Shown here one piece after another: positions 12,621 to 38,851 of a DNA stretch of 64,000 bases. The translations under genes were made by a program, and so were the position numbers. The notes below the pieces were generated by a model. The model saw only the letters and a list, made by a program, of their open reading frames with translations. It was not told the DNA's origin and did not search any database. The stretch spans positions 190 to 64,189 of the forward strand of contig PBKC01000092.1 of assembly GCA_002721365.1 (NCBI GenBank). The letters are read 5' to 3'. Source of the DNA: Rhodospirillaceae bacterium (lineage in GTDB: Bacteria; Pseudomonadota; Alphaproteobacteria; GCA-2721365). Position 1 is the first letter of the stretch. Every line of letters begins with the position of its first letter.

Positions 12621-12664
12621 AAGGACCCCCTGAAATCTTAGACGCGGACGCGAAGGGCGCCCGT

Positions 12665-16882: not shown

Positions 16883-18085
16883 ATGACCCTCGCTTGCCGC
16901 GATTGCGGGACCCTTCAGGACTTCAGGTCCTTGCCGGCGGGCTCGGTCGCCTCGTGCGCCGCATGCGGCAACACGCTGTCACGCTCGACAGGTCGCAGCA
17001 TCGGCGCCGGTTTTGCGCTGTCGCTCAGTGTGCTCTGCCTCTATATCGTCGCCCTGTCGCTGCCGTTTCTCCGGGCCAGCGTGCTGGGGCTCGAACAGGA
17101 GACGCGGATCGGCTCGATCGTGCCGCTGCTGCTCGACACCCGGTGGGTCCTGGTAGCGCTCGGCATCGGCGCTTTCATCGTCGTCTTCCCCGTCGTTCGC
17201 TTCGCTCTGCTGACTCTGGTGCTGGGCACGCTTCTTGGCGAAAGGCGGCCGGAATGGTTGGGCCGCGCCTTCCGCTGGGCCACGTCGCTCGACCTGTGGT
17301 CGATGCCGGACGTCCTCCTGATCGGATTCTTCGTCGGCTACACCCGCGTCGCCCAGCGCCTGACCGCGGAAATCGGCACGGGCGGATGGTGTTTTCTCGC
17401 CGCAGCCGGGCTGGCGATGGTCGCGCACGCCACCATTGACCGGCAGATGGTCTGGAACGCCATCGCCCCAAACCGACCCAGCCCGCGGGGCGAGAAGGTG
17501 ATCGCCTGCACGACCTGCGACCTGGCGGTCCCCAAATCGGCCGAAGGCGATCCTTGTCCGCGCTGCGGGGCACGGCTCTATGCACGGAAGCCGGATTCCC
17601 TCACCCGCACCACGGCACTGATCGTCGCCGGTCTCGTTCTGTACCCGATCGCCAACATCTGGCCGATGAGCGTCGTGACGCGGCTCGGCGAAAGCGAGGG
17701 CCGCACCATCCTCTACGGCGTTACGGAACTGGTGAAGGAAGGCATGTGGCCCTTGGCGGCGATCATCTTCTGCACCAGCATCGCCATTCCGCTGCTGAAG
17801 CTGCTGGCCATCGGCTGGTTCCTGCTGGCCACGCGTTTCGGCTGGCGGCGCGGCCTGTCGGTGCGGACGAAGCTCCACAGACTGATCGACGGTGTCGGCC
17901 GCTGGTCCAATGTCGACATCATGATCATCGCGGTCTTCGCCCCGCTGATGCAGTTCGGCGCCATCGCCACCGTCCATTTCGGCATCGGTGCGGCCTGCTT
18001 CTTCGCCGTGGTGATCCTGACGATGCTGGCGTCGCTGTCCTTCGACACGCGGCTGATGTGGGATGCGGTGGAGCAGCGGCGATGA
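16883..18085 (+). CDS. pqiA: Paraquat-inducible protein A (PqiA), duplicated zinc-ribbon/membrane domain
   Basis: Two repeats, each carrying CxxC...CxxC zinc-ribbon pairs (CRDCGT...CAACGN; CTTCDL...CPRCGA) followed by TM segments. Confidence 0.8.
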   Translation: MTLACRDCGTLQDFRSLPAGSVASCAACGNTLSRSTGRSIGAGFALSLSVLCLYIVALSLPFLRASVLGLEQETRIGSIVPLLLDTRWVLVALGIGAFIVVFPVVRFALLTLVLGTLLGERRPEWLGRAFRWATSLDLWSMPDVLLIGFFVGYTRVAQRLTAEIGTGGWCFLAAAGLAMVAHATIDRQMVWNAIAPNRPSPRGEKVIACTTCDLAVPKSAEGDPCPRCGARLYARKPDSLTRTTALIVAGLVLYPIANIWPMSVVTRLGESEGRTILYGVTELVKEGMWPLAAIIFCTSIAIPLLKLLAIGWFLLATRFGWRRGLSVRTKLHRLIDGVGRWSNVDIMIIAVFAPLMQFGAIATVHFGIGAACFFAVVILTMLASLSFDTRLMWDAVEQRR

Positions 18086-19743: not shown

Positions 19744-20318
19744 CGAGAGGCTGCGTCCTGCTGTCCTGCATGCTGCTCCTCCTGGCCGGATGTGCCGACA
19801 GCCCGGAGAGCCGGTTCTTCGTGCTGAGTCCCGTACCGCCCTCGCAACCCGCGGCGGCGGTCGACGGCGATCCCCTGGTGGTCGACGCCGTGGACATTCC
19901 CGAGAGTCTCGACCGACCGGAACTGGTGCGGCGGCTGAACGACTACCGGATGGACGTCAGCGACGTCGATCGCTGGGGCGCACCGCTGGGCCGGATGATC
20001 CGGGAGGTCTTCATCGAGGATCTCGCCGAGCGCCTGCCGCGCGGCATGGTCGTCGTCGACGGGCGGCCGGGCGACAGGGGCCCGGCGCGTGCGGTGGTGA
20101 TCAATATCCACGACTTCGCCGGCTGGCCCGGCGGAGAGGTCAAGCTCGACGTGTCATGGGCGGTCCTGGACGGGCTTCAGGGCGATCCCGTGGTTCGCCG
20201 CCGCCAGACGATCCAGGTACCGACCGGCGGCACCCAGTCGATCAACCAAGCCGACGGCATGAGCCGCGCCCTCGGCACCCTGGCCGATATCATCGTCTCG
20301 GCTCTGGCGCGCGCCTGA
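19740..20318 (+). CDS. pqiC: PqiC/YmbA-like lipoprotein (DUF330, ABC-type transport auxiliary component)
   Basis: Lipobox LLLLAGCAD. The start overlaps the pqiB stop. Size and position match pqiC. Confidence 0.7.
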   Translation: MTRGCVLLSCMLLLLAGCADSPESRFFVLSPVPPSQPAAAVDGDPLVVDAVDIPESLDRPELVRRLNDYRMDVSDVDRWGAPLGRMIREVFIEDLAERLPRGMVVVDGRPGDRGPARAVVINIHDFAGWPGGEVKLDVSWAVLDGLQGDPVVRRRQTIQVPTGGTQSINQADGMSRALGTLADIIVSALARA

Positions 20319-20425
20319 TGACCGTGAACCGGCATCATCATCCTGCCCACATCTAAGGTTTGGAGCGGTCTGATGGACAGGCTCTCCGTCCTGGGGAATA
20401 GTGCGTCCTCCCAGGGAGGACCGTT

Positions 20426-21511
20426 ATGAAGATCACCGATATCCGCACCCACCTGCTTTCCGTCCCCTTCGCCGACCCGCCGAAGACGGGCTTTCTGTCG
20501 CTGGGCGACATCGACCTTCTGGTGGTCGAGGTCGAAACCGCTTCGGGCGTGGTCGGAACCGGCCACCTCCACCCGCTGGCCGGCGGCCTCAGGACGCTCG
20601 AGATGTGCATCAACGAGATGTTGAAGCCTCTCCTGATGGGTGAGGACATCCGCGAGGTCGAGGCGCTGTGGCGGAAGATGTGGAAGGCGACCTTCATCCA
20701 GGGGCGGATGGGCATCACCGTCATGGCGATGTCCGCCCTCGACATCGCGCTCTGGGACGCCGTCGGCCGCGCCGCCGGCAAGCCGCTATGGCAGCTCTGG
20801 GACGGCCGCCCCGATCCGATCCCGACCTACGGTTCGGGATGTTTCCGCGGCCTCGGCCACGACGGCATGATCGAGAAGGCACAGCGCTTCGTCGCCCAGG
20901 GCTTCCCGGCGATCAAGATGCAGGTCGCCCACCTGTTCACCGCCGACGAGGACGTCGCCAACGTCCGCGACATGCGGGCGGCGCTGGGCGACGGGATCGA
21001 GATCATGGTCGACGTCAACCAGGGCTGGACGGCCGACGAGGCGATCGCGGTCGGCAGGCGGCTCGACGACTACCGTCTCGGCTGGCTGGAAGAGCCGGTC
21101 ATGGCCGACGACTTCGAGGGCTACGACCGCATCGCCAGCGTCCTCCGCACCCCCATCGCGACGGGCGAGAACCACTTCACCCACCACGACCTCAAGCCCT
21201 TCTTCGCCAGCGGCAAGATCCCGATTCTGCAGCCCGACATCATGCGCGGCGGCTATACCGAGCTCAGGGTCATCGCCGGCCACGCTCATCGCGCCGGGCT
21301 GAAGATCGCCCCGCACATGTTCCCGGAGCTCAGCAGCCACCTGAACGCCTCGATCGCCAACCCGTCCTGGCTCGAATACATGGGCTGGTACGATCACCTG
21401 TGGGTCGAGCCGCTGCTGCCGGTGAACGGCACCATGACCCCGCCCGACCGGCCGGGCCATGGCATGGATTTCAAGCCCGAGCTGTTCCGCGACCACCCCT
21501 ACCGGGACTGA
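20426..21511 (+). CDS. Enolase-superfamily enzyme (mandelate racemase/muconate lactonizing enzyme family)
   Basis: MR/MLE N- and C-terminal domain motifs (KMQVAH..., DVNQGWT, EEP, ATGENHFT). GGGAGGA RBS. Confidence 0.8.
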   Translation: MKITDIRTHLLSVPFADPPKTGFLSLGDIDLLVVEVETASGVVGTGHLHPLAGGLRTLEMCINEMLKPLLMGEDIREVEALWRKMWKATFIQGRMGITVMAMSALDIALWDAVGRAAGKPLWQLWDGRPDPIPTYGSGCFRGLGHDGMIEKAQRFVAQGFPAIKMQVAHLFTADEDVANVRDMRAALGDGIEIMVDVNQGWTADEAIAVGRRLDDYRLGWLEEPVMADDFEGYDRIASVLRTPIATGENHFTHHDLKPFFASGKIPILQPDIMRGGYTELRVIAGHAHRAGLKIAPHMFPELSSHLNASIANPSWLEYMGWYDHLWVEPLLPVNGTMTPPDRPGHGMDFKPELFRDHPYRD

Positions 21512-25353: not shown

Positions 25354-26676
25354 CTATCGCGGTAGCGTAACCGTCGCCGACAGCCCGCCCTCCGGCCGGT
25401 TCGCCAGCGTCAGCTCGCCGCCATGGCCGCGAAACACCGAGCGTGCGATGGCGAGGCCGAGACCCGCCCCGCCGCGTCCGGTGCCGCGCGCGCGGTCGAC
25501 GCGGTAGAAGGGTGTGAAGACGTTTTCGAGCTCGTCCTCAGGGATACCCGGCCCTCGATCGGCGATTTCGACGACGACCGTTTCCCCATCACACCACGTC
25601 GTCACCACCGCGCCGCCGGCGTAGCGCACCGCGTTCCCGATCAGATTGCCGAAACCGCGCCGAAGCGCCACCGGCCGCCCCATGAACGCACCTCCATCAC
25701 CGCCTTCGAAGGTAACCGCGCCACCCAGATCGGCGGCGTCGTTGCATAGGCTTTCGACCAGGGCGTCGATGTCGATGCGCTGCGGCTTCTCCTGGGCAGC
25801 GACGTCGCGTGCGAAGGCGAGGGCGCTGTCGGTCATGTGCTCCATCTCTTCCAGCGTCGCCAGCATGCGGCCCCGCTCCTCCTCGTCCTCGACGAATTCG
25901 GCGCGGATGCGAAGCCGGGTGATCGGCGTCCGAAGGTCGTGGGACACGGCGGCCAGCATCTGCGTGCGGTCCTCGATCGAGCGCCTGAGGCGGGTATGCA
26001 TGTCGTTGAAGGCCGAGGCCGCGCGGCGGATTTCCCTGGGTCCGGTCTCGTCGATCGGCGGACTGGCGATATCCTTCCCCAGCCGCTCGGCGGCGGCGGC
26101 GAACAGGGTGAGGGGTCGCGTCAGCCACCACGCCGCCCAGACGCTGAGGGCGACGATCCCGGCGGCCATGATCGCAAGCTCGATGGCGATCCGGTCTATG
26201 AGGCCGGGATCCACGCCGCTCAACGGCGCGACGAAGGCGAGCGCCGGCCCCTGCGCCGGGGTGACAGTCACCGCCACCCGGTCCTTCGGCCACTTCGCGC
26301 CGCCTTCGCCGATCGAGACCTCGCCGTCTTCGATCGTCCGCGCGACGACGGACGCCCCGTCGAGGCGGGCCCGCAGCGCCCGCTCGATCAGCCGCGCGCG
26401 CCAGTCGTGACCGCCCGTCACCAGCTGGTCACCGCCTCCCCCGACGACGAGGTCCGGGCCGAGCGGATGCCACCCACCCGCCTCCACCGGCAGGGCGTCG
26501 GCCACCGCCATCGCCCCGGCGACCCGCTCCACCGCCTGCGCGCCGCCGAACAGCGGCAGGGCATGGGTCGGATTGGCGTAGTGCACCGCCATGCTGGCGA
26601 TATGCGTGACCAGCAGGCCGGTCACCAGCAGCAGCACCGCGCGGCCGGACAGGCTGTCGGGCAACAGGCGGCGCAT
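25354..26676 (-). CDS. Sensor histidine kinase (EnvZ-like; TM-periplasmic-TM-HAMP-HisKA-HATPase)
   Basis: H-box AAVSHDLRTPITRL plus N/G1/G2 boxes (GNLIGNAVRYA, DRGPGI, GGAGLGLAI). Starts 5 nt after the RR stop. Confidence 0.8.
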   Translation of the reverse strand: MRRLLPDSLSGRAVLLLVTGLLVTHIASMAVHYANPTHALPLFGGAQAVERVAGAMAVADALPVEAGGWHPLGPDLVVGGGGDQLVTGGHDWRARLIERALRARLDGASVVARTIEDGEVSIGEGGAKWPKDRVAVTVTPAQGPALAFVAPLSGVDPGLIDRIAIELAIMAAGIVALSVWAAWWLTRPLTLFAAAAERLGKDIASPPIDETGPREIRRAASAFNDMHTRLRRSIEDRTQMLAAVSHDLRTPITRLRIRAEFVEDEEERGRMLATLEEMEHMTDSALAFARDVAAQEKPQRIDIDALVESLCNDAADLGGAVTFEGGDGGAFMGRPVALRRGFGNLIGNAVRYAGGAVVTTWCDGETVVVEIADRGPGIPEDELENVFTPFYRVDRARGTGRGGAGLGLAIARSVFRGHGGELTLANRPEGGLSATVTLPR

Positions 26677-26681
26677 GACCG

Positions 26682-27401
26682 TCAGGCCGCCTCCACCGGC
26701 GCCGCCAGCATGTAGCCGCCGCCACGGACGGTCTTGATCAGCCTGGGGTCGCGCGGATCGTCTTCGAGACGGCGGCGAAGCCGGCCGATCTGGACGTCGA
26801 CGCTGCGGTCGAACGGCGCCGCGACCCGGCCGCGGGTGAGGTCCAGGAGCTCGTCCCGACTCAGCACTTGGCGGGGATGCTCGACGAGAGCGGCAAGAAG
26901 ATCGAATTCCCCGGCGCTCAGCGGCACGTTGACGCCGGCCGGCGAGACGAGGTCGCGGGCGGCGAGATCGATTTCCCACCCGGCGAAACGCAGGCGGTTG
27001 CGCTGGACCGGCAGCGAGTCCGGAGAACGCCCTGCGCGCCGCAGGACGGTCCTGATCCGGGCCAGAAGCTCGCGCGGATTGAAGGGCTTCGGCAGGTAGT
27101 CGTCGGCGCCGATCTCCAGGCCGACGATCCGGTCGGTATCGTCGCCTCGTGCCGTGAGCATGACGATGGGGACCGACGACCGCACCCGAATGGCCCGCGT
27201 GAGATCGAGTCCGTCGCGGCCGGGCAGCATCAGGTCGAGGACAATCAGGTCGACCGGCGGGTCTTGGGCGAGCCGCGCCTCCATCTCGTCGCCGTCGCCG
27301 GCCACACTCACCGTGTAGCCGTTGCGGCCGAGATAGCGCGCCAGCAGCTCGCGGGTCTCGCCATCGTCGTCGACGATCAGAACATGATGGCTTTCCGCCA
27401 T
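26682..27401 (-). CDS. OmpR-family response regulator (REC + winged helix)
   Basis: Near-identical to the OmpR segment IVGLEIGADDYLPKPFNPRELLARIRTVLRR. REC with VDLIVLDLMLPG. Divergent from copA across an AT-rich intergenic region. Confidence 0.85.
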   Translation of the reverse strand: MAESHHVLIVDDDGETRELLARYLGRNGYTVSVAGDGDEMEARLAQDPPVDLIVLDLMLPGRDGLDLTRAIRVRSSVPIVMLTARGDDTDRIVGLEIGADDYLPKPFNPRELLARIRTVLRRAGRSPDSLPVQRNRLRFAGWEIDLAARDLVSPAGVNVPLSAGEFDLLAALVEHPRQVLSRDELLDLTRGRVAAPFDRSVDVQIGRLRRRLEDDPRDPRLIKTVRGGGYMLAAPVEAA

Positions 27402-27523: not shown

Positions 27524-27628
27524 TTTATTTTCTTGTTTCCATTGACCACATTCCCGACTGTCTGCCGGGGTGCCGAGCCGGCGCACGCTTGCGCGCGCCC
27601 CATGGTACAGGCCGATGGAGAGCATGAC

Positions 27629-29626
27629 ATGCTGACCCGACGATCCTTCCTGCGTACCGCAGCATCGGCCGGAGCGCTCCTGTCCATGGGCAGCCTGCTG
27701 CCAGCCTGGGCGAGAAGCCCGAGGACCCTCGCCGAAGCCGGCATCACCCCCCTTTCGGGCACCGAGTTCGACCTGGCCATCGACCGGACGACGGCGGCGA
27801 TCGACGGCCGGACCGGCCACGCGATCACCGTCAACGGCACCATCCCGGCGCCGCTGCTGCGCTGGAAGGAAGGCGACACGGTGACGATGCGGGTGACCAA
27901 CCGCCTGAACGAGGACAGCTCGATCCACTGGCACGGGATTCTGCTCCCGTTCCAGATGGACGGCGTCCCCGGCGTCACCTTTCCCGGCATCCGCCCCGGC
28001 GAGACCTTCACCTACCGCTTTCCGGTCAAGCAGGCCGGCACCTATTGGTATCATAGCCATTCGAATCTGCAGGAGCAGTCAGGCCATTACGGACCGCTGG
28101 TGATCGACCCCGCCGGCCACGATCACGTCGCCTACGACCGTGAATACGTGGTCGTCCTGTCGGACTGGACCTTCGAAAACCCGCACCGTCTGTTCGCCAA
28201 GCTGAAGAAGATGGGCGAAAGCCTGAACTATCAGCACCGGACGATCGGCGACTTCTTCGCCGACGTCGCCGAGGATGGGCTCGGCGCGACGGTCGACGAC
28301 CGGCTGGCCTGGGGCCGCATGCGGATGGCGCCGACCGACATCTCCGACGTCTCCGGCGCGACTTACACGTTCCTCGTCAACGGGCACGGGCCGGAGGACA
28401 ACTGGACGGCCCTGTTCGAGCCGGGCGAGCGGGTGCGCCTTCGCATCATCAATGCCTCGGCCATGACCATCTTCAACGTCCGCATTCCCGGCCTGCCGAT
28501 GACCGTGGTGCAAGCCGACGGCCTTCTCGTCCAGCCGGTCGAGACCGACGAGTTCCAGATCGGCGTCGCCGAGACCTACGACGTCGTCGTGCAGCCGGAG
28601 AAGGACGAGGCCTACACCCTGATGTGCGAAGGGATCGCGCGCATGGGTTATGGCCGCGCCACCCTGGCGCCGCGTCCGGGCATGCAGGCGCCGGTGCCGC
28701 CGCTCCGCCCCCGCCCTCTCCTCACCATGAAGGACATGGGCATGGGGATGGATATGGACATGGGCGGCCATGGCGGCCACGGGATGGCGATGACCGGAGA
28801 GAGCCAAGCGAGCGCCGCGCCCATGGCCGCCAAAATGGCCGGAGACGCCATGACGGCGGCGGACGGAGCCATGGATCATGGTGCCATGGATCACGCGGCC
28901 ACGGATTCGAGTGCGATGGCCGCCGAGACCATGGCCGACGGCATGGATCACGCCGCAATGGATCATGCCGCGACCGGCCATGGCGACACGATGGCGGCGA
29001 CCGGAGACATGGCCCCGCAGGACGGCATGGCGATGGATCAGGGCACGGCCGTGAATGACGGCATGGCCATGGACCACGACGCCATGGCCCAGCATGCCCA
29101 CCCGACCGGCCCCGGCGTCGCCAACACGGCGATGGAGCCGGTGAGCCGGCTGCACGAGCGCGGCATCGGGCTGGAGAACGAGCCCCACCGCGTCCTCGTC
29201 TACACCGACCTGAAGAGCCTGGAACGCAACCCGGACACCCGTCCGCCGGGCCGTGAGATGGAGCTGCATCTGACCAGCAACATGGAGCGCTACATGTGGT
29301 CGTTCGACGGCATGAAGTTCTCCGAAGTCACCGAGCCGATCGTCTTCCGTCACGGCGAACGGCTGCGGCTGACGATGGTGAACGACACCATGATGCCGCA
29401 TCCAATCCACCTGCACGGCATGTTCTTCGACGTCGTCAACGGCGCCGGCGACCACATGCCCCGGAAGCACACCATCATCGTCAAGCCGGGTGAGAAGCTC
29501 TCGGTCGACATCACTGCCGACGCGATCGGCGACTGGGCGTTCCACTGCCACCTGCTCTACCACATGCATGCCGGCATGTTCCGGGTGGTCTCGGTGCGCG
29601 ACCAGATGGCGGAGATTATGGAATGA
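27629..29626 (+). CDS. copA: Multicopper oxidase CopA (periplasmic, Tat-exported) with Met-rich insert
   Basis: Tat signal RRSFLRTAASAGA. MCO copper-site motifs (HWHG, HCHLLYHMHAGM). Long Met/His/Asp-rich segment (MGMGMDMDMGGHGGHGMAMTG...MDHAAMDH...). Confidence 0.9.
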   Translation: MLTRRSFLRTAASAGALLSMGSLLPAWARSPRTLAEAGITPLSGTEFDLAIDRTTAAIDGRTGHAITVNGTIPAPLLRWKEGDTVTMRVTNRLNEDSSIHWHGILLPFQMDGVPGVTFPGIRPGETFTYRFPVKQAGTYWYHSHSNLQEQSGHYGPLVIDPAGHDHVAYDREYVVVLSDWTFENPHRLFAKLKKMGESLNYQHRTIGDFFADVAEDGLGATVDDRLAWGRMRMAPTDISDVSGATYTFLVNGHGPEDNWTALFEPGERVRLRIINASAMTIFNVRIPGLPMTVVQADGLLVQPVETDEFQIGVAETYDVVVQPEKDEAYTLMCEGIARMGYGRATLAPRPGMQAPVPPLRPRPLLTMKDMGMGMDMDMGGHGGHGMAMTGESQASAAPMAAKMAGDAMTAADGAMDHGAMDHAATDSSAMAAETMADGMDHAAMDHAATGHGDTMAATGDMAPQDGMAMDQGTAVNDGMAMDHDAMAQHAHPTGPGVANTAMEPVSRLHERGIGLENEPHRVLVYTDLKSLERNPDTRPPGREMELHLTSNMERYMWSFDGMKFSEVTEPIVFRHGERLRLTMVNDTMMPHPIHLHGMFFDVVNGAGDHMPRKHTIIVKPGEKLSVDITADAIGDWAFHCHLLYHMHAGMFRVVSVRDQMAEIME

Positions 29627-30396
29627 GGACTGCCGGCTCGATCATAGCGCTGCTGCTCGCGACGGCTGTCCTGCCGGCCCACGCCCAGAACGCCGCCGAC
29701 AGCTATTACGACCCCGCGGAGATGGCCGCCGCCCGCAAGGCGCTTCACGAAGGCATGGGTGGCCAGACCCTCTATCTGATAGAGGGGGACCGGCTCGAAT
29801 ACCGGACCAATGAAGGCAACCCCGCCATGCTGTGGGATGCCCAGGGTTGGGTCGGCGACGACATGAACAAGGCCTGGTTCAAGACCGAAGGCGAGTATCT
29901 GTTCGACGATCACAGCTTCGAAGAGGCGGAAGTCCAGGCTCTCTACGGCCGGACCATCTCCACCTATTTCGATCTCCAGGCCGGCATCCGCCACGACTTC
30001 CGACCCGATCCGTCACGCACGTTCGGCGTCATCGGCGTGCAGGGCCTGGCGCCCTACTGGTTCGAGCTCGATGCCGCCGCCTTCGTCAGCGAGGACGGCG
30101 ACGTCTCGGCCCGCATCGAGGCCGAGTACGAGCTGCCGATCACCCAGCGCCTGATCCTCCAGCCCCGGACCGAGCTCAATCTGGCGGTCCAGGACGTCCC
30201 GGAGCTTGGCATCGGGTCGGGCCTCAGTACCGTCGATCTCGGGCTCCGGCTCCGCTACGAGATCGTCCGCGAGTTCGCCCCCTATGTCGGCGTGTCTTGG
30301 AACCGTGCGGTAGGCGAGACCGCCGACTTCGCTCGGCAGGATGGCGAGGACGTGTCGTCGGTCTCCTTCGTTGCCGGAGTCCGGTTCTGGTACTGA
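29623..30396 (+). CDS. copB: Copper resistance outer-membrane protein CopB
   Basis: Signal peptide. The start overlaps the copA stop. CopB-family beta-barrel with C-terminal ...FVAGVRFWY. Confidence 0.85.
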   Translation: MRTAGSIIALLLATAVLPAHAQNAADSYYDPAEMAAARKALHEGMGGQTLYLIEGDRLEYRTNEGNPAMLWDAQGWVGDDMNKAWFKTEGEYLFDDHSFEEAEVQALYGRTISTYFDLQAGIRHDFRPDPSRTFGVIGVQGLAPYWFELDAAAFVSEDGDVSARIEAEYELPITQRLILQPRTELNLAVQDVPELGIGSGLSTVDLGLRLRYEIVREFAPYVGVSWNRAVGETADFARQDGEDVSSVSFVAGVRFWY

Positions 30397-30439
30397 GCGG
30401 CCAAGTCTGTCGAAACGGAACCTGACAAGAGGTGTCCCG

Positions 30440-31051
30440 ATGCGATCAAGACATCTAGCTGCCGCACTTGCTGCGGCCCTTCTCCTCGGATCTGCGGCCT
30501 CGGTGGCCCTCGCCCATGATCATGAACGTGGGCATGGCGATCACCACGGTGGGCATATGGATATGTCCGAATCCGCGGGCCATCCGGCGCCCGACAGCAA
30601 ACCGGACCGGCGGGTCGAGATCACGGCCCATGACGACATGACCTTCGATCCACCGGGGATCCATGCCGAAGCCGGCGAGACGATCGAGTTCCTGGTCACC
30701 AACAACGGGAAAATAGCGCACTCCTGGTCGCTCGGGACCTCCGACGGACAGATGGCGCACGAACGGGAAATGGCGGCCCTGTCGATGAGCGCGATGGCCT
30801 CACATATGGAAGGCGCGCCCAACGGCTTCGTCCTGCAGCCCGGCGAAACCCGCTCGCTCGTCTGGCAGTTCGGCGAGAACGGCTCCGTCGAATATGCCTG
30901 CCACATGCCCGGCCACTTCGCCGCCGGCATGGTCGGCGAGGTTCAGGTGGATACCGCGATGCACATGGATGGTGGCGTGCACACCGATTCCCATCACGGT
31001 GAGGGCGGGCATCATGCCGGCGAAGCGATGCACGACCGGGATGACCACTGA
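30440..31051 (+). CDS. Periplasmic cupredoxin-like copper protein with His/Met-rich tails (CopI-like)
   Basis: Signal peptide. His-rich N-terminal (HDHERGHGDHHGGHMDM). Type-1 Cu ligand motif YACHMPGHFAAGM. His-rich C-terminus (HHGEGGHHAGEAMHDRDDH). AAGAGGTG RBS. Confidence 0.65.
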   Translation: MRSRHLAAALAAALLLGSAASVALAHDHERGHGDHHGGHMDMSESAGHPAPDSKPDRRVEITAHDDMTFDPPGIHAEAGETIEFLVTNNGKIAHSWSLGTSDGQMAHEREMAALSMSAMASHMEGAPNGFVLQPGETRSLVWQFGENGSVEYACHMPGHFAAGMVGEVQVDTAMHMDGGVHTDSHHGEGGHHAGEAMHDRDDH

Positions 31052-31107: not shown

Positions 31108-31509
31108 ATGGCGAAGGCAAGCGCTTCGGAAGAACCCCGATGCCGGGCATCGGTTGGCAGACGGGCGTTCGCCGCCTCGGCGGCCGCTCTGCTGTCGGTT
31201 ACGGCCGGTCCCGTGGCCGCCCAGGACGCGCCGCCGCAGCGGTATTGGAGCGATCACATGTGGGACGGCCGGATGATGGGCGGTGACTGGGGATGGGGAC
31301 ACATGCTGTTCGGCTCGATTTCCATGATCATTTTCTGGGGCGGTCTCATCCTGCTGGTCGTCCTGCTGATCCGCTGGCTCGGCGACGGCCACACGGGCTT
31401 CGGCCCCCGGCGGCGCACGGCGCTCGACATTCTCGAGGAACGCTTCGCCCGCGGCGAAATCGACCATGAGGAATTCGAAGCCCGGCGGCGGCGTCTGTCG
31501 GACCGCTGA
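31108..31509 (+). CDS. Membrane protein with C-terminal SHOCT domain
   Basis: One TM ([19 protein letters not shown]) plus a SHOCT-like C-terminus ([26 protein letters not shown]). Confidence 0.55.
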
Positions 31510-31594
31510 GCCAGCAATCCTTCACGCTCGCCGCGCACGTCCCGGCGACGCCAAGCGTTCCGTCCACACTCAGACTCGTCCGACCGGCGGGGCC

Positions 31595-33661
31595 ATGAAC
31601 GACACGCACGCGCAAGACCACAGTGGTCATGGGAACGGAGGTCATAAGGGGCACGATCACGCCCATATGATCACCGACTTCAAGCGGCGGTTCTGGGTAT
31701 CGATCGTTCTGACGGTACCCATCCTTCTTCTCTCGCCGATGATCCGGACCTTCCTCGGGATCGGCGATGCCGTCGCCTTTGCCGGCGATTCCTATGTCCT
31801 GGCAGGACTGTCGACGATCGTCTTCGTCTATGGTGGCTGGCCGTTCCTCACGGGACTCGCCGGCGAGGTCGGCAAGGGCCGGCCGGGCATGATGACCCTG
31901 ATCGGTCTCGCCGTGACGGTAGCCTATGTGTACTCGGTCGCGATCGTCCTGGGCCTGGACGGCAAGGTCTTCTTCTGGGAGCTGGCGACCCTGATCGACG
32001 TCATGCTGCTCGGTCACTGGATCGAGATGCGGTCGGTGATGGGCGCGTCGCGGGCACTGGACGAACTGATCCGGATGATGCCCGACACCGCCGACAAGGT
32101 GACGGAGGACGGCAGGACGGAAACGGTCCGGGTCTCCGATCTGGTCGCCGGAGACAAGGTTCTCGTCCGGCCGGGGGCCAAGGTCCCGATCGACGGCGTG
32201 ATCGTCGAAGGCCGTACCAGCCTGGATGAATCGATGCTCACGGGCGAATCCCGCCCGGTCGAAAAAGGTGAAGCCGACGAAGTCGTCGGCGGGTCGGTCA
32301 ATGGCGACGGCGCCATCACCGTCGAGGTCGAGAAGACCGGTGCCGAGACCTACCTGTCGCAGGTCGTGTCGATGGTCCGGCAGGCGCAGGAGTCACGCTC
32401 GCGCAGCCAGAACATGGCCGACCGCGCGGCTGGCTGGCTGACCTACATCGCCATCATCGTGGGCCTCGTCACCCTGGTTGCCTGGCTGATCGCCGGGAGC
32501 GACTTCCAGTTCGCCCTGGCGCGGATGGTCACGGTCATGGTGATCACCTGCCCGCACGCCCTGGGACTCGCCGTTCCGCTCGTCGTCGCCGTCAGTACCG
32601 GGATCAGCGCCGCGAACGGCCTCTTGATCCGCGACCGGGCGAGCTTCGAGCGTGCTCGCAATCTCGACGCCGTGATCTTCGATAAGACCGGAACTCTGAC
32701 CCAGGGCCGGTTCGGTGTCAGCGACGTGGTGGCGGTGAGCGACCTGTCGGAGAATGAGATTCTGCGATTGGCCGCCTCGCTCGAAAGCCGCTCGGAGCAT
32801 CCGATTGCCCGCGGCATCACCGCCGCCGCCGAGGAACGGCGCATCGACATCAGCCAGCCGGAGAACTTCGAGAACCTGCGCGGGCGCGGCGCGCAGGGGC
32901 GCGTCGGCGATCATGCGGTGAAGGTCGTAAGCCCGAGCTATATCAGAGAGCAGGGCCTGGCGGTGGAGAACGCCCGCGTCGACGACCTCGCCGCGGAAGG
33001 CAAGACGGTCGTCCATGTCATGGCGGATGAGAGGGTGGTAGGCGCAATAGCCCTGGCCGATCTCGTACGGGACGAGTCGCGCGAAGCAGTGACGAAACTC
33101 AAGGACATGGGTCTTCGCTGCATCATGCTGACCGGCGATGCCGAGGCCGTCGCCAAATCGGTGGCGGGTGAACTCGGTCTCGACGAGTATTTTGCCGAAG
33201 TCCTTCCGGACCAGAAGGCCGACAAGGTCAAGCAGGTGAAAGCGGAAGGCCGGACGGTCGCCATGGTCGGCGACGGGGTCAACGACGCGCCGGCCCTTGT
33301 CGAAGCCGATCTCGGCATCGCCATCGGTGCCGGCACCGACGTCGCTATCGAGTCCGCCGATGTCGTTCTCGTCCGCAACGACCCGCGCGACGTCGTCGCG
33401 ATCCTGGCGCTTTCGCGCGCTACCTATAGAAAGATGATCCAGAATTTCGCATTGGCGACGGGATACAACGTGGTCGCCATCCCGCTGGCCGCAGGTGTCG
33501 GGATCGCCTGGGGCATTCTGCTGTCGCCTGCCGTGGGCGCGGCACTCATGTCCGTAAGCACCGTTCTTGTCGCCATCAATGCAAAGCTGTTGGGACGCTT
33601 CAGCGACTCAGCCGGCCTCGCCAGCGAAAAACAACCATCAAATAAACATAACTCAGGTTAA
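31595..33661 (+). CDS. P1B-3-type copper-transporting P-type ATPase (CopB-like; His-rich N-terminal metal-binding domain, CPH motif)
   Basis: His-rich N-terminus ([20 protein letters not shown]) instead of a CxxC MBD. TM6 motif [10 protein letters not shown] (CPH). DKTGT phosphorylation site, GDGVNDAP hinge, and the HP/TGES motifs are present. Confidence 0.9.
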
Positions 33662-33714
33662 AGAATATTGCGGTTACCTAAAGTAATATTTCCACCTAGT
33701 AAGAGGAGGCTCCA

Positions 33715-34578
33715 ATGTTTAGAAGCAGTCTAGTTGCTCTTGCCGCTTTCCTGTCTCTGACCGCGACCGGCTTGCCTGCGGCGGCGCAGCAAGATCAGAC
33801 AGATCAGCCCCAGGCCACGGCCCCCGGACCTATGGCCGGCATGATGCATCGGCGCGGCATGGGCATGATGGGTGAGCCGGGTGCGGCCTGCCCGTTCGCC
33901 GACGACGGCGCCACCTGCGGCCGGATGACGGACGACGACATGAGAGGCCCAGGCATGATGGGCGGCGGCATGATGCCGATGATGCGCATGATGCACGGAG
34001 GACAAGGTATGGGCGGCGGCACGCCGTCGGTCATCATCAATATCTATCCCGGCGGTCCCATGGGGATGAACATGGGCGGCATGGGTATGGGCATGATGGC
34101 CGGCCCCATGATGAACCGGAGCACGGGTATGGGCATGGGACCGGGAATGGGTATGGGCCGCGGCATGTCGAACGGCGACATGACGATGGGCGGCATGGGC
34201 CGAGGCCGCGTGAACATGATGGCCGACGACAGCGATAGCGACATGTTCGGCCCCGGCCGCGACGCCTATGGCGGCATGGGTATGGGCATGGGCCGCGGCA
34301 TGATGGGCGGCGGCATGATGATGGGGCCGATGGCGGGCGACGGCATGCAGGGTGGCATGCATCGGGGCCGGGGCCGCGACCTGGACCTTTCGGAAGACGA
34401 CGTCCGCGAGATGATGAGTGAACATTTCGCCATGATGGGCCGCGACGATCTCACCGTCAGCACGGTCAGTCCGATCGACGACGACCTGATGAGCGTGGAC
34501 GTCGCAACCACGGATGGTCAGGAGCATCATCGCATGGTGGTCAATCGCCACTCGGGCGCGATGATGCGCGCGGACTGA
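33715..34578 (+). CDS. Secreted Met/Gly-rich low-complexity protein (about 25% Met; MGMGMG repeats), probable Cu(I)-binding periplasmic protein
   Basis: Cleavable signal peptide. Extended (M/G)n repeats (GMGMGMMAGPMM, GMGMGPGMGMGRGM, GGMGMGMGRGMMGGGMMMGPM). Two Cys (CPFADDGATC). Structured-looking C-terminal about 60 aa. GAGGAGG RBS. Located within the copper island. The antisense His/Ala-rich ORF 33730-34551 is rejected as a mirror artefact. Confidence 0.6.
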   Translation: MFRSSLVALAAFLSLTATGLPAAAQQDQTDQPQATAPGPMAGMMHRRGMGMMGEPGAACPFADDGATCGRMTDDDMRGPGMMGGGMMPMMRMMHGGQGMGGGTPSVIINIYPGGPMGMNMGGMGMGMMAGPMMNRSTGMGMGPGMGMGRGMSNGDMTMGGMGRGRVNMMADDSDSDMFGPGRDAYGGMGMGMGRGMMGGGMMMGPMAGDGMQGGMHRGRGRDLDLSEDDVREMMSEHFAMMGRDDLTVSTVSPIDDDLMSVDVATTDGQEHHRMVVNRHSGAMMRAD

Positions 34579-34653
34579 ACGGCTCCTTGCGCAACCGGGA
34601 ACGATCCCGCTTGTTCAGCGTGGTATAATACCCAATCAAACCGAGGCTCGAAC

Positions 34654-35136
34654 ATGCGGAAACTCATCCTGGCTGCACTGGCGATCGGCGTCATGACCGC
34701 CCATCCCGTGCTTGCCGACCCGCCGCCGCATGCCGGTGGCGGGCCTGGCAAGGGCAAGGGAAAGGCCGGGGAAGTCCATCATGCTCCTTCCCTCAGGCAT
34801 GGAGACGAAGGGCGTGACGGCGTCGACATCGCTATCCGGTTCGGCGACCGGGACTATCAGGCGATCCGAAGCTATTACGGAAACATCGGCAATTGCCCGC
34901 CAGGGCTGGCCAAGAAGCATAATGGCTGCCAGCCGCCCGGACAGGCGAAGAAGTGGCGGCTCGGTCACCGGCTTCCCGGCGATGTCGTCTATTACGACCT
35001 GCCGCCGGATCTGCTGGTCCATCTCTCGCGGACGTCGGCCGGCTACAAATATGTCCGTGTCGGCGCCGACATCCTGAAGATCGCCGTCGGTACCGGCCTC
35101 GTGGTCGACGCCATCGAGGATCTGGGCCGGCTCTAG
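34654..35136 (+). CDS. RcnB/YohN-family periplasmic metal homeostasis protein
   Basis: Signal peptide. C-terminal motif GHRLPGDVVYYDLPPDLL...GYKYVRVGADILKIAVGTGLVVDAI typical of the RcnB family. Confidence 0.5.
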   Translation: MRKLILAALAIGVMTAHPVLADPPPHAGGGPGKGKGKAGEVHHAPSLRHGDEGRDGVDIAIRFGDRDYQAIRSYYGNIGNCPPGLAKKHNGCQPPGQAKKWRLGHRLPGDVVYYDLPPDLLVHLSRTSAGYKYVRVGADILKIAVGTGLVVDAIEDLGRL

Positions 35137-37522: not shown

Positions 37523-38851
37523 ATGACCGGAAGAGTGGAGTTCCGCTGCGCGAGCAAGACCTCGCCCGACACCAAGCGTCGGCAGAGTCTGCTCGACATC
37601 GCACGCGCGACCGGCGTGCCCATCTGGTGCGAATGCGGCGGCAAGGCCCGCTGCACCACCTGCCGGGTGCGGGTGGTCGACGGGCTGGCCAACCTGGCGC
37701 CGCGCTCCGCCGCCGAGAAGCGGCTCGCCTCGCTGCGCGGCTGGGACCCGGCCACCCGGCTCGCCTGCCAGACCCGCGTCACCGGGAACGTCGCCGTCGA
37801 GCGCCTGATCCGCAGCGGATCGGAGGTGAGCCCGCTTCAGGTCGAGACCGTCCGCGCCGGAAGCGGCGACGAGCGCCAGCTCGCCATCCTGTTCTGCGAC
37901 GTCCGCGACTTCACCACCTTCGCCGAGTCACACCTGTCGTTCGACGTGGTCCACGTGCTCAACAAGCTGTTCGCGGTGCTGGGCGAGCCGATCCTGCTCA
38001 ACAACGGCGTCATCTACCAGTACGTCGGCGACGAGATCACCGGCCTGTTCGGTCTCGAAGCGGGCAGCGAGGCGGATAGCTGCCGCACCGCCGTCCGTGC
38101 CGCCCTCGGCATGCTGGCCGCGGTCGAGACCCTGAACGACGAACTGGAGAGCGAGTTCGGGGCGCGGCTCGCGGTCGGGATCGGCCTCCATTTCGGCCCG
38201 GTGGTGATCGGCCGCATCGGCCATCCCAGCCACCAGCAGTTCGGCGTGGTCGGCGACACCATCAACGCCGCCAGCCGCATTCAGGAGGCCAACAAGACCC
38301 TCGGCACCCGATTCCTGGCTTCGAGCCCTGTCGTCGACTGCCTGCCGGAGGGCGTGCTCGCCTGCGGGAAGTCCACCACCGTCACCCTGCGCGGTCGGCA
38401 GGAACCGGTGGGGCTGGTCGAGATCCGGGGCTTCACCACGCCGGACCCGGTGCTGATCGCCCAGACCACCGCCGGTGCCCTTCTGTCACGGAAGGCCGAG
38501 CTGACCTCGGCCTTCTACGGACGCCTGTTCGAGGCGGCGCCCGGCCTCCGGCCGATGTTTCCCGCCAACCTGGAGGGGCAGTCGGAAAAGCTCGGCCAGA
38601 TGCTGGAAGTGCTGGTCTATGCGCTGAACCGGCCGACCCAACTCGCGATGGGCCTCCACAGCCTGGGCCAGCGCCACGTCGCCTACGGCGTCACCGCCGA
38701 GCATTACGCCGCCGTCGGCCCGATCCTGCTCGCGGCCATCGGCGACATCCTGGGCGACGACTTCCAGCCCCAGGTGAGGGAGGCATGGGCGGCCCTGATC
38801 GACACCATCCTGCAGCTCATGCAGCGGGGCGCGGCGAACGCGCCCGACTGA
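37523..38851 (+). CDS. Three-domain fusion: [2Fe-2S] ferredoxin (adrenodoxin-type) / class III adenylyl-guanylyl cyclase catalytic domain / C-terminal single-domain globin
   Basis: N-terminal C-x5-C-x2-C-x33-C (CGGKARCTTC...ACQTRV). CHD cyclase motifs (LAILFCDVRDFTTF, VGDEITGLFG, GIGLHFGPVVIGRIG, GDTINAASRIQ). C-terminal globin helices matching Vgb/Hmp (FYGRLFEAAPGLRPMF; LAMGLHSLGQRHVAYGVTAEHYAAVGPILLAAIGDILGDDF...REAWAALIDTI). Confidence 0.75.
   Translation: MTGRVEFRCASKTSPDTKRRQSLLDIARATGVPIWCECGGKARCTTCRVRVVDGLANLAPRSAAEKRLASLRGWDPATRLACQTRVTGNVAVERLIRSGSEVSPLQVETVRAGSGDERQLAILFCDVRDFTTFAESHLSFDVVHVLNKLFAVLGEPILLNNGVIYQYVGDEITGLFGLEAGSEADSCRTAVRAALGMLAAVETLNDELESEFGARLAVGIGLHFGPVVIGRIGHPSHQQFGVVGDTINAASRIQEANKTLGTRFLASSPVVDCLPEGVLACGKSTTVTLRGRQEPVGLVEIRGFTTPDPVLIAQTTAGALLSRKAELTSAFYGRLFEAAPGLRPMFPANLEGQSEKLGQMLEVLVYALNRPTQLAMGLHSLGQRHVAYGVTAEHYAAVGPILLAAIGDILGDDFQPQVREAWAALIDTILQLMQRGAANAPD

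What the first reader, a model, noticed from the sequence alone, without database searches (positions are those of the whole stretch)
33715..34578. Extremely Met/Gly-rich secreted protein embedded in the copper island
The 287-aa product has a clean signal peptide and then roughly 200 residues that are almost entirely (M/G/P/R/N) repeats such as GMGMGMMAGPMM and GMGMGRGMMGGGMMMGPM. Met is about a quarter of all residues. Two Cys lie near the N-terminus and a non-repetitive C-terminal about 60 aa follows. It sits directly after a CPH-type copper ATPase and before an RcnB-like gene, inside a copA-copB-copI-like island. Met-rich motifs bind Cu(I) and Ag(I) in CopA, CusF and PcoE/SilE. This looks like a periplasmic, probably disordered Cu(I) sponge of a type I cannot place in a known family. 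The antisense strand encodes a His/Ala-rich mirror ORF, which is an artefact of the ATG/GGC repeat.
Basis: partly seen in the sequence, partly recalled or inferred. Interest (0 to 1): 0.65.

Follow-up and report, generated by a model that had tools for sequence, protein, structure and literature searches.

The report
Secreted methionine-rich copper-island protein, unnamed family
This is a real, secreted, largely disordered protein that is one-fifth methionine; it sits in a copper-resistance operon and ends in a small folded domain marking a large, unnamed family of mostly alphaproteobacterial proteins usually encoded next to metal pumps and metal-sensing regulators, so it is most likely a periplasmic copper-binding helper, though no metal binding has been measured.

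Summary
The ORF at 33715-34578 (+) is real: strong Shine-Dalgarno, Sec-type signal peptide, 19.9% Met and 21.3% Gly. The identical protein occurs in three or more independent assemblies. dN/dS against a syntenic orthologue is 0.10 for the C-terminal domain and 0.28 for the linker. AlphaFold2 predicts residues 1-220 as disordered and 222-287 as a confident helix plus four-strand domain.

Neither the protein nor 174 relatives match any Pfam or NCBIfam model convincingly. A profile of the C-terminal domain finds 1,721 clusters at 50% identity. The 80 genome loci recovered come almost entirely from Alphaproteobacteria.

Across 86 loci, the recurrent neighbours within 5 kb are:
- a SHOCT single-pass membrane protein, directly downstream in 32/80
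- a divergent OmpR-type two-component system, in 30/71
- P1B ATPases, in 19/86
- MerR regulators, RND pumps and DUF5676

The window carries the same module, interleaved with copA-copB-copI.

Best reading: a periplasmic Met-thioether Cu(I)/Ag(I) buffer or relay, working like SilE/PcoE or the CueO Met-rich domain but not homologous to them. The conserved domain probably docks or oligomerises. Metal binding is inferred, not shown. I found no literature on the family.

The parts
33701..33709 (+). Shine-Dalgarno AAGAGGAGG, 5 nt before the ATG
   Evidence: Read directly from the sequence. The alternative start used in the public annotation (M40, nt 33832) has no such site.
33715..34578 (+). Whole ORF: 287-aa Met/Gly-rich secreted protein, stop codon included
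   Evidence: GC3 is 0.82. The identical protein is found in at least 3 independent assemblies. dN/dS is 0.10-0.28 against the syntenic orthologue P0002.
33715..33786 (+). Sec-type signal peptide (aa 1-24, predicted cleavage AAA|QQ)
   Evidence: n/h/c pattern read from the sequence. An equivalent N-terminal signal is present in essentially all full-length homologues (alignment A1). No SignalP-type tool was available.
33787..34377 (+). Predicted disordered Met/Gly-rich linker (aa 25-221). The linker aa 31-219 holds 48 Met; the mature protein (aa 25-287) has 15 MM, 13 MxM and 10 MxxM pairs.
   Evidence: pLDDT below 50 throughout. Composition and motif counts. Large indels against the orthologue but dN/dS 0.28 in alignable parts.
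33889..33918 (+). Cys59...Cys68 segment (ACPFADDGATCG)
   Evidence: Only Cys68 is kept in P0002. Cys count varies across the family: 0 in 68, 1 in 49 and 2 or more in 21 of 138 members. It is therefore not a defining feature.
34024..34056 (+). Hydrophobic motif PSVIINIYPGG (aa 104-114) inside the disordered region
   Evidence: Conserved in all 8 close-subfamily members and in no other of 174 family sequences sampled. AlphaFold2 does not dock it onto the domain. Function unexplained.
34378..34575 (+). Conserved C-terminal domain (aa 222-287): one helix plus a four-stranded antiparallel sheet
   Evidence: pLDDT about 95 in the full-length model, 84 when modelled alone. The family HMM built from A2 (which includes this sequence) scores it at E = 4e-29; the independent evidence is the homologues found with it as single query (E 2e-21 for P0003, 3.6e-18 for P0004). 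The A2 profile finds 1,721 clusters at 50% identity. dN/dS 0.096.
31108..31509 (+). SHOCT single-pass membrane protein, the conserved genomic partner of the family
   Evidence: Pfam SHOCT E = 4.5e-9. 44% identical to the SHOCT gene found directly downstream of family members elsewhere. Shares the HMW(D/E)G...GWG extracytoplasmic motif.
31466..33661 (+). P1B-type ATPase with CPH transmembrane motif and His-rich N-terminus (the public call starts at 31595)
   Evidence: TIGR01511 E = 3e-182. CPH, YN(x4)P and MSxST motifs read from the translation. Alternative start.
34654..35136 (+). RcnB/CigR-like small exported protein immediately downstream
   Evidence: Weak hits only: PF11776 RcnB E = 5e-4, NF040487 CigR family E = 3e-11, both below their cut-offs. 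Syntenic in L095.
27533..31051 (+). copA (multicopper oxidase), copB and copI-like cupredoxin genes at the head of the same-strand gene string
   Evidence: Pfam and NCBIfam hits. No terminator-like site on the + strand between 27000 and 35400.
25354..27401 (-). Divergent two-component system: OmpR-type response regulator (26682-27401) and histidine kinase (25354 to about 26676)
   Evidence: Pfam. The kinase is 49% identical to the kinase encoded beside family members in other genomes. Probable kinase start.
33730..34551 (-). Antisense His/Ala-rich 273-aa ORF. Not a gene; a mirror of the ATG/GGC-rich sense strand.
   Evidence: GC3 0.64 against 0.82 for the sense frame. All homology, the signal peptide and the domain are in the sense frame.

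Best explanation
The gene encodes a periplasmic protein with two parts. The first is a ~200-residue disordered Met/Gly-rich tail whose many MM, MxM and MxxM thioether clusters bind several Cu(I) (and probably Ag(I)) ions weakly and reversibly. The second is a small folded C-terminal domain that carries no invariant metal ligand. That domain most likely tethers the tail by oligomerising, or by docking to a partner: the SHOCT membrane protein, the ATPase or the sensor kinase.

The gene is probably co-transcribed with copA-copB-copI-SHOCT-ATPase, under the divergent two-component system. The protein would capture Cu(I) released into the periplasm by the P1B ATPase, buffer it, and pass it to the CopA oxidase, CopI or CopB.

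Shown here: the gene is real and under purifying selection; it has a signal peptide; the tail is predicted disordered and the domain folded; the family exists; the gene neighbourhood is conserved.

Inferred: export, metal binding, stoichiometry, partner docking and co-regulation.
For: Real gene: SD site, signal peptide and GC3 of 0.82. The identical protein occurs in at least 3 assemblies. dN/dS is 0.096 for the domain and 0.28 for the linker against a syntenic orthologue.

Disorder plus a folded domain.

Met content is extreme: 19.6% against 8% or less for every other ORF in the window.

Local context: ATPase-X-RcnB-like-catalase is conserved in L095. Close homologues P0003 and P0004 sit in P-ATPase / PCuAC-like / SHOCT / X clusters, and P0004 lies beside the mer operon, DUF411 and cusCBFA.

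Family-wide context, 86 loci from different species:
- SHOCT directly downstream in 32/80
- OmpR-type response regulator divergent upstream in 30/71
- a P-type ATPase of at least 300 aa within 5 kb in 19/86. Of 13 that could be typed, 9 are copper-type (6 CPCALGLA or CPCAMGLA, 3 CPH)
- small YHS/TRASH-like proteins of ~114 aa in up to 7 more (only L057's was inspected)
- MerR in 10, DUF5676 in 13

From general knowledge, a genome holds 1-4 such ATPases, so the chance expectation for a 10-kb neighbourhood is below about 1%.

Met-rich members (linker Met at least 12%) carry the ATPase, MerR and SHOCT links: 18/64 have an ATPase. Met-poor members (below 8%) have none in 10.

The window's own SHOCT protein and kinase are homologous to those partners.

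Published precedent for Met-rich disordered periplasmic segments handling Cu(I)/Ag(I): SilE (PMC5008109), the CueO Met-rich domain (PMC11494321) and the PcoB N-terminal region (PMC12509749).
Against: No experiment or expression data exist for any family member.

The domain has no invariant His, Met or Cys, so nothing in the conserved part points to metal chemistry.

Met-richness is not a family constant. Some members use Gly-Tyr or Gly-Trp linkers.

Several members lie in neighbourhoods unrelated to metals: P0012, P0014 and P0024. 28 of 86 loci show none of the four marker neighbours.

Four of the typed neighbouring ATPases have the Zn/Cd/Pb-type CPCALVIS motif.

The contrast between Met-rich and Met-poor members for ATPase association is only marginal. 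My own hand estimate of a one-sided exact test gives about 0.05, and it is not corrected for phylogeny.

Unlike SilE, the tail has only 3 His. Pure thioether sites are weak binders, so a high-capacity 'sponge' is not guaranteed.
Confidence: 0.6

Rival explanations
1. It is a periplasmic accessory regulator of the two-component system or the pump, in the manner of CpxP or ZraP. The protein reports periplasmic metal load to the sensor kinase or gates the ATPase/SHOCT complex. Metal buffering would be secondary.
For: The commonest neighbour after SHOCT is a divergently transcribed OmpR-type response regulator with its kinase, a median of ~145 nt away, in 30/71 loci and in 10/10 Met-poor members. 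From memory, this is the same layout as zraP/zraSR and cpxP/cpxRA. One such kinase has a Met-rich periplasmic loop (L077). The conserved part of the protein is a ligand-free small domain, which suits protein-protein contact. The best, non-significant fold matches are dimerisation domains of DsbG/DsbC-like proteins.
Against: In the window the gene is six genes away from the two-component system and next to the ATPase. The close homologues in L001, L009 and L095 have no adjacent two-component system. There is no similarity to the CpxP/Spy/ZraP families (no Pfam hit). This reading is not exclusive of metal buffering, since ZraP does both.
Confidence: 0.2
2. It is a glycine-rich disordered envelope protein whose role is not specific to metals, for example a spacer, a hydrogel or condensate former, or a chaperone-like holdase. 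The high Met content in this copy would be a lineage-specific variation.
For: Gly richness is the constant feature of the linker (about 30%) while Met varies from 1% to 39%, with Tyr/Trp variants. One member carries a peptidoglycan-binding domain (P0111). 28 of 86 loci lack the marker neighbours.
Against: The recurrent neighbours are overwhelmingly metal-efflux or metal-regulatory genes. Met-rich versions carry the link to the ATPases. The alignable parts of the linker are under purifying selection.
Confidence: 0.1
3. It is a sacrificial methionine sink for oxidants (H2O2, HOCl or copper-driven ROS) in the periplasm, repaired by methionine sulfoxide reductases.
For: 57 exposed Met residues. 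A catalase HPII gene lies two genes downstream, convergently transcribed, in both the window and L095. Exposed Met in copper proteins are known oxidation targets (PMC12860648, abstract only).
Against: No msrP/msrQ or other Msr gene emerged among the recurrent neighbours. The catalase link is seen only in the two closest loci. The family-wide partners are metal pumps and regulators.
Confidence: 0.07
4. It is not a real gene: a chance ORF in an ATG/GGC-rich repeat, or a collapsed or expanded assembly artefact.
For: Low-complexity sequence and a long antisense ORF. A 98%-identical variant differs by a 2-aa GM deletion (P0001).
Against: The SD site, the signal peptide, the conserved folded domain, dN/dS of 0.1, conserved synteny, identical sequence in independent assemblies, and only weak DNA-level tandem repeats.
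Confidence: 0.02

Closest known systems
SilE / PcoE periplasmic 'molecular sponge' proteins of the sil and pco operons (PMC5008109)
   Same: A small secreted protein encoded in a metal-resistance operon with a P1B ATPase, disordered in the apo state, and rich in Met that binds several Ag(I)/Cu(I) ions. It is the best functional analogy.
   Different: No sequence similarity; no Pfam or NCBIfam match was returned. SilE relies on paired His/Met motifs and folds into helices on binding. This protein has only 3 His in the tail and about 50 Met in Gly-rich repeats. It also ends in a conserved folded domain that SilE lacks, and has a different set of conserved neighbours (SHOCT, two-component system).
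Met-rich domains and loops of multicopper oxidases (CueO, CopA/PcoA) and the disordered N-terminal region of PcoB/CopB (PMC11494321, PMC12041951, PMC12509749)
   Same: Flexible Met-rich (and His-rich) periplasmic segments that bind Cu(I) transiently and recruit it for oxidation or efflux. The window's own CopA carries a ~130-aa insertion of this kind.
   Different: Those are segments of enzymes or channels. Here the Met-rich segment is a free-standing protein joined to a small adaptor-like domain, and it has higher Met density: 26% over 160 residues.
PepSY domains (PF03413), small periplasmic helix-plus-sheet modules often encoded beside two-component systems
   Same: About 60 residues with one helix packed on a four-stranded antiparallel sheet, a terminal 'vD..TG.v' strand motif, and a periplasmic location. 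The siderophore reductase FoxB (7abw), a PepSY-domain protein to my recollection, appears among the weak fold matches (TM 0.50).
   Different: Homology is not detectable. Only 1 of 142 members gives a weak PepSY hit. hhalign of the family profile against a PepSY consensus gives 2.5% probability.
CusF / CopK / PCuAC-type periplasmic Cu(I) chaperones
   Same: A proposed role as periplasmic acceptor of Cu(I) from a P1B ATPase. I recall CusF accepting Cu(I) from E. coli CopA; I did not check this in a paper.
   Different: Those are compact beta-barrel or cupredoxin-like proteins with one or two defined sites. There is no sequence match, and a multi-site disordered binder would buffer rather than chaperone one ion.
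CpxP / Spy / ZraP periplasmic accessory proteins
   Same: A small periplasmic protein encoded divergently from a two-component system in many family loci. ZraP also binds metal.
   Different: Those are all-helical LTXXQ proteins. There is no sequence or fold similarity.

Membership tests
SilE/PcoE | Sequence homology to SilE/PcoE models | tested here: not met
   No Pfam or NCBIfam family at E <= 0.1 for the window protein, and none matched by more than two of the 33 close relatives. I did not confirm that either library contains a SilE/PcoE model.
SilE/PcoE | Secreted and intrinsically disordered in the apo form | tested here: met
   Signal peptide read from the sequence. AlphaFold2 pLDDT below 50 for residues 1-220. 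This is prediction only.
SilE/PcoE | Repeated His-plus-Met motifs that bind Ag(I)/Cu(I) (PMC5008109) | tested here: not met
   Only 3 His in aa 25-221. The motifs are Met-only: 15 MM, 13 MxM and 10 MxxM in the mature protein, aa 25-287.
SilE/PcoE | Binds several Ag(I)/Cu(I) ions per molecule | not testable with these tools
   Needs ICP-MS, ITC or native mass spectrometry on purified protein.
PepSY (PF03413/PF13670) | Match to the Pfam model | tested here: not met
   0 of 33 and 1 of 142 members match, the best at E = 3.4e-4. The family consensus gives no Pfam hit even at E <= 10. hhalign probability is 2.5%.
PepSY (PF03413/PF13670) | Helix plus four-stranded antiparallel sheet fold | tested here: inconclusive
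Unnamed family defined here (signal peptide + Gly-rich low-complexity linker + C-terminal helix/four-strand domain) | C-terminal domain matches the family | tested here: met
   The single-sequence search with the window protein recovers the family: E = 2e-21 for P0003 and 3.6e-18 for P0004, with the most distant hits aligning only over the C-terminal ~22%. The family HMM scores it at E = 4e-29, but that profile was built from A2, which includes the window sequence. The A2 profile retrieves 1,721 clusters at 50% identity, 991 of them at E <= 1e-10.
Unnamed family defined here | Signal peptide followed by a Gly-rich (usually Met-rich) linker | tested here: met
   Alignment A1. Family linker medians are Met 18% and Gly 30%. 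The window protein has 25% Met and the highest absolute Met count in the sample.
Unnamed family defined here | Genomic association with a SHOCT membrane protein, a two-component system and/or a P1B ATPase | tested here: met
   All three are present in the window's gene string and are homologous to the partners seen elsewhere. The order is permuted: SHOCT lies upstream of the ATPase rather than directly downstream of X.
CusF (PF11604) and PCuAC (PF04314) periplasmic Cu(I) chaperones | Match to the family model | tested here: not met
   No hit.
CpxP/Spy/ZraP | LTXXQ-type all-helical periplasmic protein | tested here: not met
   No Pfam hit. The predicted fold is alpha+beta.

The most novel reading that the evidence does not exclude
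The C-terminal domain marks an undescribed, widespread family of periplasmic adaptors, mainly in Alphaproteobacteria. Together with the co-encoded SHOCT single-pass membrane protein, which has a conserved extracytoplasmic His-Met-Trp motif, these would form a new membrane-anchored module. The module would receive soft-metal ions at the periplasmic exit of P1B ATPases and couple efflux to downstream handling or to two-component signalling. The disordered linker (Met-, Tyr/Trp- or EF-hand-containing) would set ion specificity.
Probability: 0.3. Interest if true: 0.72.

Novelty: new variant of a known kind. Interest (0 to 1): 0.55.

Why it matters
Little is known about how Cu(I) is handled in the periplasm between the inner-membrane ATPase and the oxidase or outer-membrane exit, outside E. 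coli's CusF and the SilE/PcoE proteins. This gene represents a large, entirely unannotated protein family: every public name seen is 'hypothetical protein', and the public call for this very gene is truncated so that the signal peptide is lost. The family repeatedly accompanies metal pumps, a SHOCT membrane protein and a two-component system in marine and soil Alphaproteobacteria.

If the Met-rich tail is a multi-site Cu(I) buffer tethered by an adaptor domain, it would add a new component to bacterial copper homeostasis. It would also give SHOCT proteins a first concrete physiological context, and provide a natural series of Met-, Tyr/Trp- and EF-hand-type linkers for studying how disordered regions select ions.

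If it proves to be only another Met-rich copper binder, the value is mainly better annotation of metal islands in metagenomes.

Tried and rejected
- Pfam and NCBIfam scans of the protein, of 33 close relatives and of 142 distant relatives gave nothing meaningful.
- A profile search of PDB sequences gave only chance SUMO hits, E of 0.03 or worse.
- Foldseek against PDB gave no hit at E <= 1e-3.
- The PepSY homology idea was tested and not supported.
- A genome scan for the close subfamily (HHRMVVNRHSGAMMRA) found nothing in 185,579 species representatives. The metagenome scan returned only a duplicate of the P0004 locus.
- Plasmid searches gave no close DNA match to the island. There was one distant protein hit, on a Phenylobacterium plasmid, annotated hypothetical.
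- The promoter and terminator scan was uninformative.
- The composition profile showed no sign of foreign origin.
- The 122-aa gene downstream of P0004 is unrelated to the window's RcnB-like gene.
- The idea that the hydrophobic VIINIY motif packs onto the domain is not supported by AlphaFold2.
- My first count of ATPase neighbours (26 loci) was inflated by ~114-aa ORFs joined to the cluster (a YHS/TRASH protein in the one case inspected). The corrected figure is 19 loci.
- Literature searches by motif and by keyword found no paper on this family.
Full report
**1.

The ORF runs from 33715 to 34578 on the + strand and encodes 287 aa. Its ATG is the first start codon, four codons after an in-frame stop. 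It is preceded by AAGAGGAGG with a 5-nt spacer.

Met is 19.9% and Gly 21.3% of all residues. In residues 71-230 they reach 26% and 31%. No other stop-to-stop ORF of at least 100 aa in the window exceeds 8% Met, and the median is 1.1%. Cys59 and Cys68 are present.

The N-terminus (MFR / SSLVALAAFLSLTATGL / PAAA|QQ) has the layout of a Sec signal peptide. The low-complexity part is interrupted by two acidic patches and by a hydrophobic PSVIINIYPGG motif.

The antisense His/Ala ORF exists but has lower GC3 (0.64 against 0.82) and no homology support.

At DNA level the repeats are short and imperfect. The identical protein is encoded on six contigs from at least three independent assemblies. An assembly artefact is therefore excluded.

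**2. It is a real gene under selection**

The window comes from an uncultured marine Rhodospirillaceae MAG with locus tags CMM50_*. The public annotation of this gene (MBL29145.1) is 248 aa. It starts at Met40, which has no ribosome-binding site and removes the signal peptide. All homologues keep the signal peptide, so the longer ORF is the better call.

A diverged orthologue, P0002 on contig L095, lies in the same ATPase-X-RcnB-like-catalase arrangement. The flanking proteins are highly similar, whereas X is only 65% identical and differs in length by 66 aa in the repeat region.

dN/dS is 0.096 for the C-terminal 71 codons and 0.28 for the alignable part of the linker, with dS of about 0.8-1.1. 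The domain is strongly constrained. The linker is constrained in composition rather than in exact sequence.

**3. Anatomy**

AlphaFold2 with the family alignment gives pLDDT below 50 for residues 1-220. It gives about 95 for residues 222-287, which form one helix (227-240) followed by four antiparallel strands. The domain modelled alone gives pLDDT 84.

Across 33 relatives the only invariant residues are V230, R278 and G281. There is no invariant His, Met or Cys. The conserved domain therefore does not look like a metal site.

**4. A large unnamed family**

A sequence search found 32 relatives, all labelled hypothetical. All share the plan of signal peptide, Gly/Met-rich repeats (GPGMMG and similar) and the C-terminal domain.

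A profile of the domain alone retrieves 1,721 clusters at 50% identity at E <= 1e-3, of which 991 are at E <= 1e-10. Some members carry two or three tandem domains. One has an N-terminal peptidoglycan-binding domain.

Database tests gave the following:
- Pfam or NCBIfam: no model matches the window protein, and 174 relatives give only isolated weak or unrelated hits.
- PDB sequences: nothing beyond chance.
- Foldseek against PDB: no hit at E <= 1e-3. The nearest shapes are DsbG/DsbC-type dimerisation domains, SnoaL-like proteins and the siderophore reductase FoxB, which I recall as a PepSY-domain protein.
- PepSY homology: hhalign probability 2.5% against a PepSY consensus that itself scores E = 1.7e-25 on PF03413.

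I found no paper describing the family.

**5. Gene neighbourhood**

I fetched 80 loci from distinct species-level genomes, nearly all Alphaproteobacteria. They include Nisaea, Tistlia, Pelagibius, Kiloniellaceae, Dongiaceae, Roseovarius, Maritimibacter, Sulfitobacter, Bradyrhizobium, Methyloceanibacter and Novosphingobium. I added the metagenome loci and clustered all ORFs within 5 kb of the family gene. Cluster representatives were then identified with Pfam.

Recurrent neighbours are listed below.

| Neighbour | Frequency | Position or note |
|---|---|---|
| SHOCT single-pass membrane protein | 32/80 loci with enough flank | Same strand, median 4 nt downstream |
| OmpR-type response regulator with histidine kinase | 30/71 | Divergent upstream |
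| P-type ATPase of at least 300 aa | 19/86 | Within 5 kb |
| Small YHS/TRASH-like proteins (~114 aa) | up to 7 further loci | Joined to the ATPase cluster; only L057's was inspected |
| DUF5676 | 13 | |
| ArsR-rhodanese regulators | 12 | |
| MerR regulators | 10 | |
| RND pumps | 15 | With membrane-fusion proteins in 8 |

Of 13 ATPases that could be typed, six are CPCALGLA or CPCAMGLA and three are CPH, all copper types. Four are CPCALVIS, the Zn/Cd/Pb type. This typing rests on my knowledge of P1B signatures.

From general knowledge a genome has one to four P1B ATPases. A 10-kb neighbourhood should therefore contain one in well under 1% of cases by chance.

Three members on long contigs sit in neighbourhoods unrelated to metals. 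28 of 86 loci show none of the four marker neighbours.

**6. Linker composition tracks context**

| Linker type | n | ATPase | SHOCT | MerR | Two-component system | RND | ArsR-rhodanese |
|---|---|---|---|---|---|---|---|
| Met at least 12% | 64 | 18 | 29 | 10 | 13 | 3 | 3 |
| Met below 8% (Gly-Tyr/Trp repeats, soil MAGs) | 10 | 0 | 2 | 0 | 10 | 6 | 6 |

The ATPase contrast alone is marginal: about 0.05 one-sided by my own hand estimate, uncorrected for phylogeny. The overall pattern is nonetheless coherent. The window protein has the highest absolute Met count in the family sample.

**7. The window carries the same module**

Upstream on the opposite strand lie a response regulator (26682-27401) and a kinase (25354 to about 26676). 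The kinase is 49% identical to the kinase found beside family members elsewhere.

On the + strand follow:
- copA, a multicopper oxidase with a ~130-aa Met/His/Asp-rich insertion
- copB
- a CopI-like cupredoxin
- a SHOCT membrane protein, 44% identical to the family's usual partner
- the CPH-type, His-rich-N-terminus ATPase
- X
- an RcnB/CigR-like gene

These identifications rest. No terminator-like site interrupts the + strand here.

The same MAG has a second paralogue, P0004. It lies on a mobile-element-like contig with a PCuAC-like gene, SHOCT, the mer operon, DUF411 and cusCBFA. Another close homologue, P0003, follows a P-ATPase, a PCuAC-like gene and SHOCT.

**8. Interpretation**

The best-supported model is a periplasmic protein whose disordered tail offers dozens of thioether ligands for transient, multi-site Cu(I)/Ag(I) binding. 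The mature protein has 15 MM, 13 MxM and 10 MxxM pairs. This would buffer the metal released by the ATPase and feed the CopA, CopI or CopB route. The conserved C-terminal domain would tether or oligomerise the tail.

The partner for that domain is unknown. The SHOCT protein is the obvious candidate because of its tight gene coupling and its conserved extracytoplasmic (H)MW(D/E/N)G...GW(H/G) motif.

This works like SilE/PcoE (PMC5008109), the CueO Met-rich domain (PMC11494321) and the PcoB disordered N-terminus (PMC12509749). It is not a member of any of those families.

Rival readings are:
- a CpxP/ZraP-like accessory regulator of the two-component system, which is compatible with metal binding
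- a Gly-rich envelope protein not specific to metals
- a methionine oxidant sink, prompted by the conserved neighbouring catalase
- a non-gene, which is effectively excluded

Metal binding, export, regulation and docking are all inferred, none shown.

**9. Verdict**

Its interpretation is plausible but only partly supported.

The new information is that the conserved C-terminal domain defines the protein, not the Met repeat. That domain marks a large, unannotated family with a conserved SHOCT, two-component-system and metal-pump neighbourhood, drawn almost entirely from Alphaproteobacteria in the genomes sampled.

I rate it a new variant of a known kind (periplasmic Met-rich metal binders), of moderate interest.

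Noticed in passing
window 31108-31509 (+); L011, L012, L014 and other loci, directly downstream of the family gene: The SHOCT single-pass membrane proteins paired with this family share a short extracytoplasmic His/Met/Trp-rich motif, (H)MW(D/E/N)G...GW(H/G). It is followed by one TM helix and a cytoplasmic SHOCT domain ([22 protein letters not shown]). It could be a Cu(I)-binding or docking peptide. SHOCT proteins have no established function.
   Followed up: partly
window 33715-33834: The public annotation of this gene (MBL29145.1, CMM50_16555) is 248 aa and starts at Met40, which has no Shine-Dalgarno site. That call removes the signal peptide and hides the fact that the protein is secreted.
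   Followed up: yes
window about 28700-29100 (+), inside copA (27533-29626): The CopA multicopper oxidase carries a ~130-aa Met/His/Asp/Ala-rich insertion (MGMGMDMDMGGHGGHGMAM...AMDHGAMDHAATD...). This is much longer than the Met-rich loop I recall in E. coli CueO.
   Followed up: no
window 37523-38851 (+): A 442-aa protein combines a 2Fe-2S ferredoxin domain, an adenylate/guanylate cyclase domain and a globin domain, according to the precomputed Pfam hits. This is an unusual redox- or gas-sensing cyclase architecture.
   Followed up: no
family sample P0001-P0174: 55 of 138 signal-peptide-bearing members have A-x-A followed by His, so the mature protein would start with His. An N-terminal His is typical of histidine-brace Cu(II) sites such as the one in CopC. 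The window protein instead starts QQDQ.
   Followed up: partly
L053, L054, L056, L060, L063, L064, L071, L079 (soil Alphaproteobacteria MAGs): These members are Met-poor, with GPGY/GPGW linkers. They are always next to the two-component system and often next to an RND pump with its membrane-fusion protein and an ArsR-rhodanese regulator. None is next to an ATPase.
   Followed up: partly
P0064, P0074, P0077, P0084, P0117, P0153: These tandem-domain family members have a canonical EF-hand loop (DADxDGTLTVDEVK) at the start of the first domain's helix, in place of the usual DLSxDDVR. This hints that the segment can be an ion-binding site in some lineages.
   Followed up: no
window 34024-34056 (aa 104-114): The hydrophobic motif PSVIINIYPGG sits inside the disordered region. 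It is conserved in all 8 close-subfamily members and absent from the rest of the family. AlphaFold2 does not fold it onto the domain. It may be a short linear docking motif or a beta-augmentation motif.
   Followed up: partly
L001 (same MAG, CMM50_06920) 9060-20708: A second paralogue (P0004) lies on a contig with resolvase, ArdC, KlcB and Fic genes. Its neighbours are a PCuAC-like gene, SHOCT, the mer operon (merR, merT, HMA gene, merF), DUF411 with a cytochrome c, and cusCBFA. This looks like a mobile multi-metal island.
   Followed up: partly
L077 7240-8730 (-): The histidine kinase encoded beside a family member has a Met-rich periplasmic loop (GMGGMMHGMMMGPGFG). The window's homologous kinase lacks it.
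   Followed up: no
window 34621-34629: TGGTATAAT, an extended -10-like sequence, lies 25 nt upstream of the RcnB/CigR-like gene. That gene may therefore have its own promoter. The consensus scan did not call it because there is no -35 match.
   Followed up: no
L018, L019, L020, L083: The ATPases next to family members in Nisaea, in an unclassified alphaproteobacterial MAG (L019) and in a Novosphingobium MAG have the CPCALVIS motif. That motif is typical of Zn/Cd/Pb (P1B-2) pumps, and these usually come with a MerR-type regulator. The family is therefore not exclusively linked to copper.
   Followed up: partly
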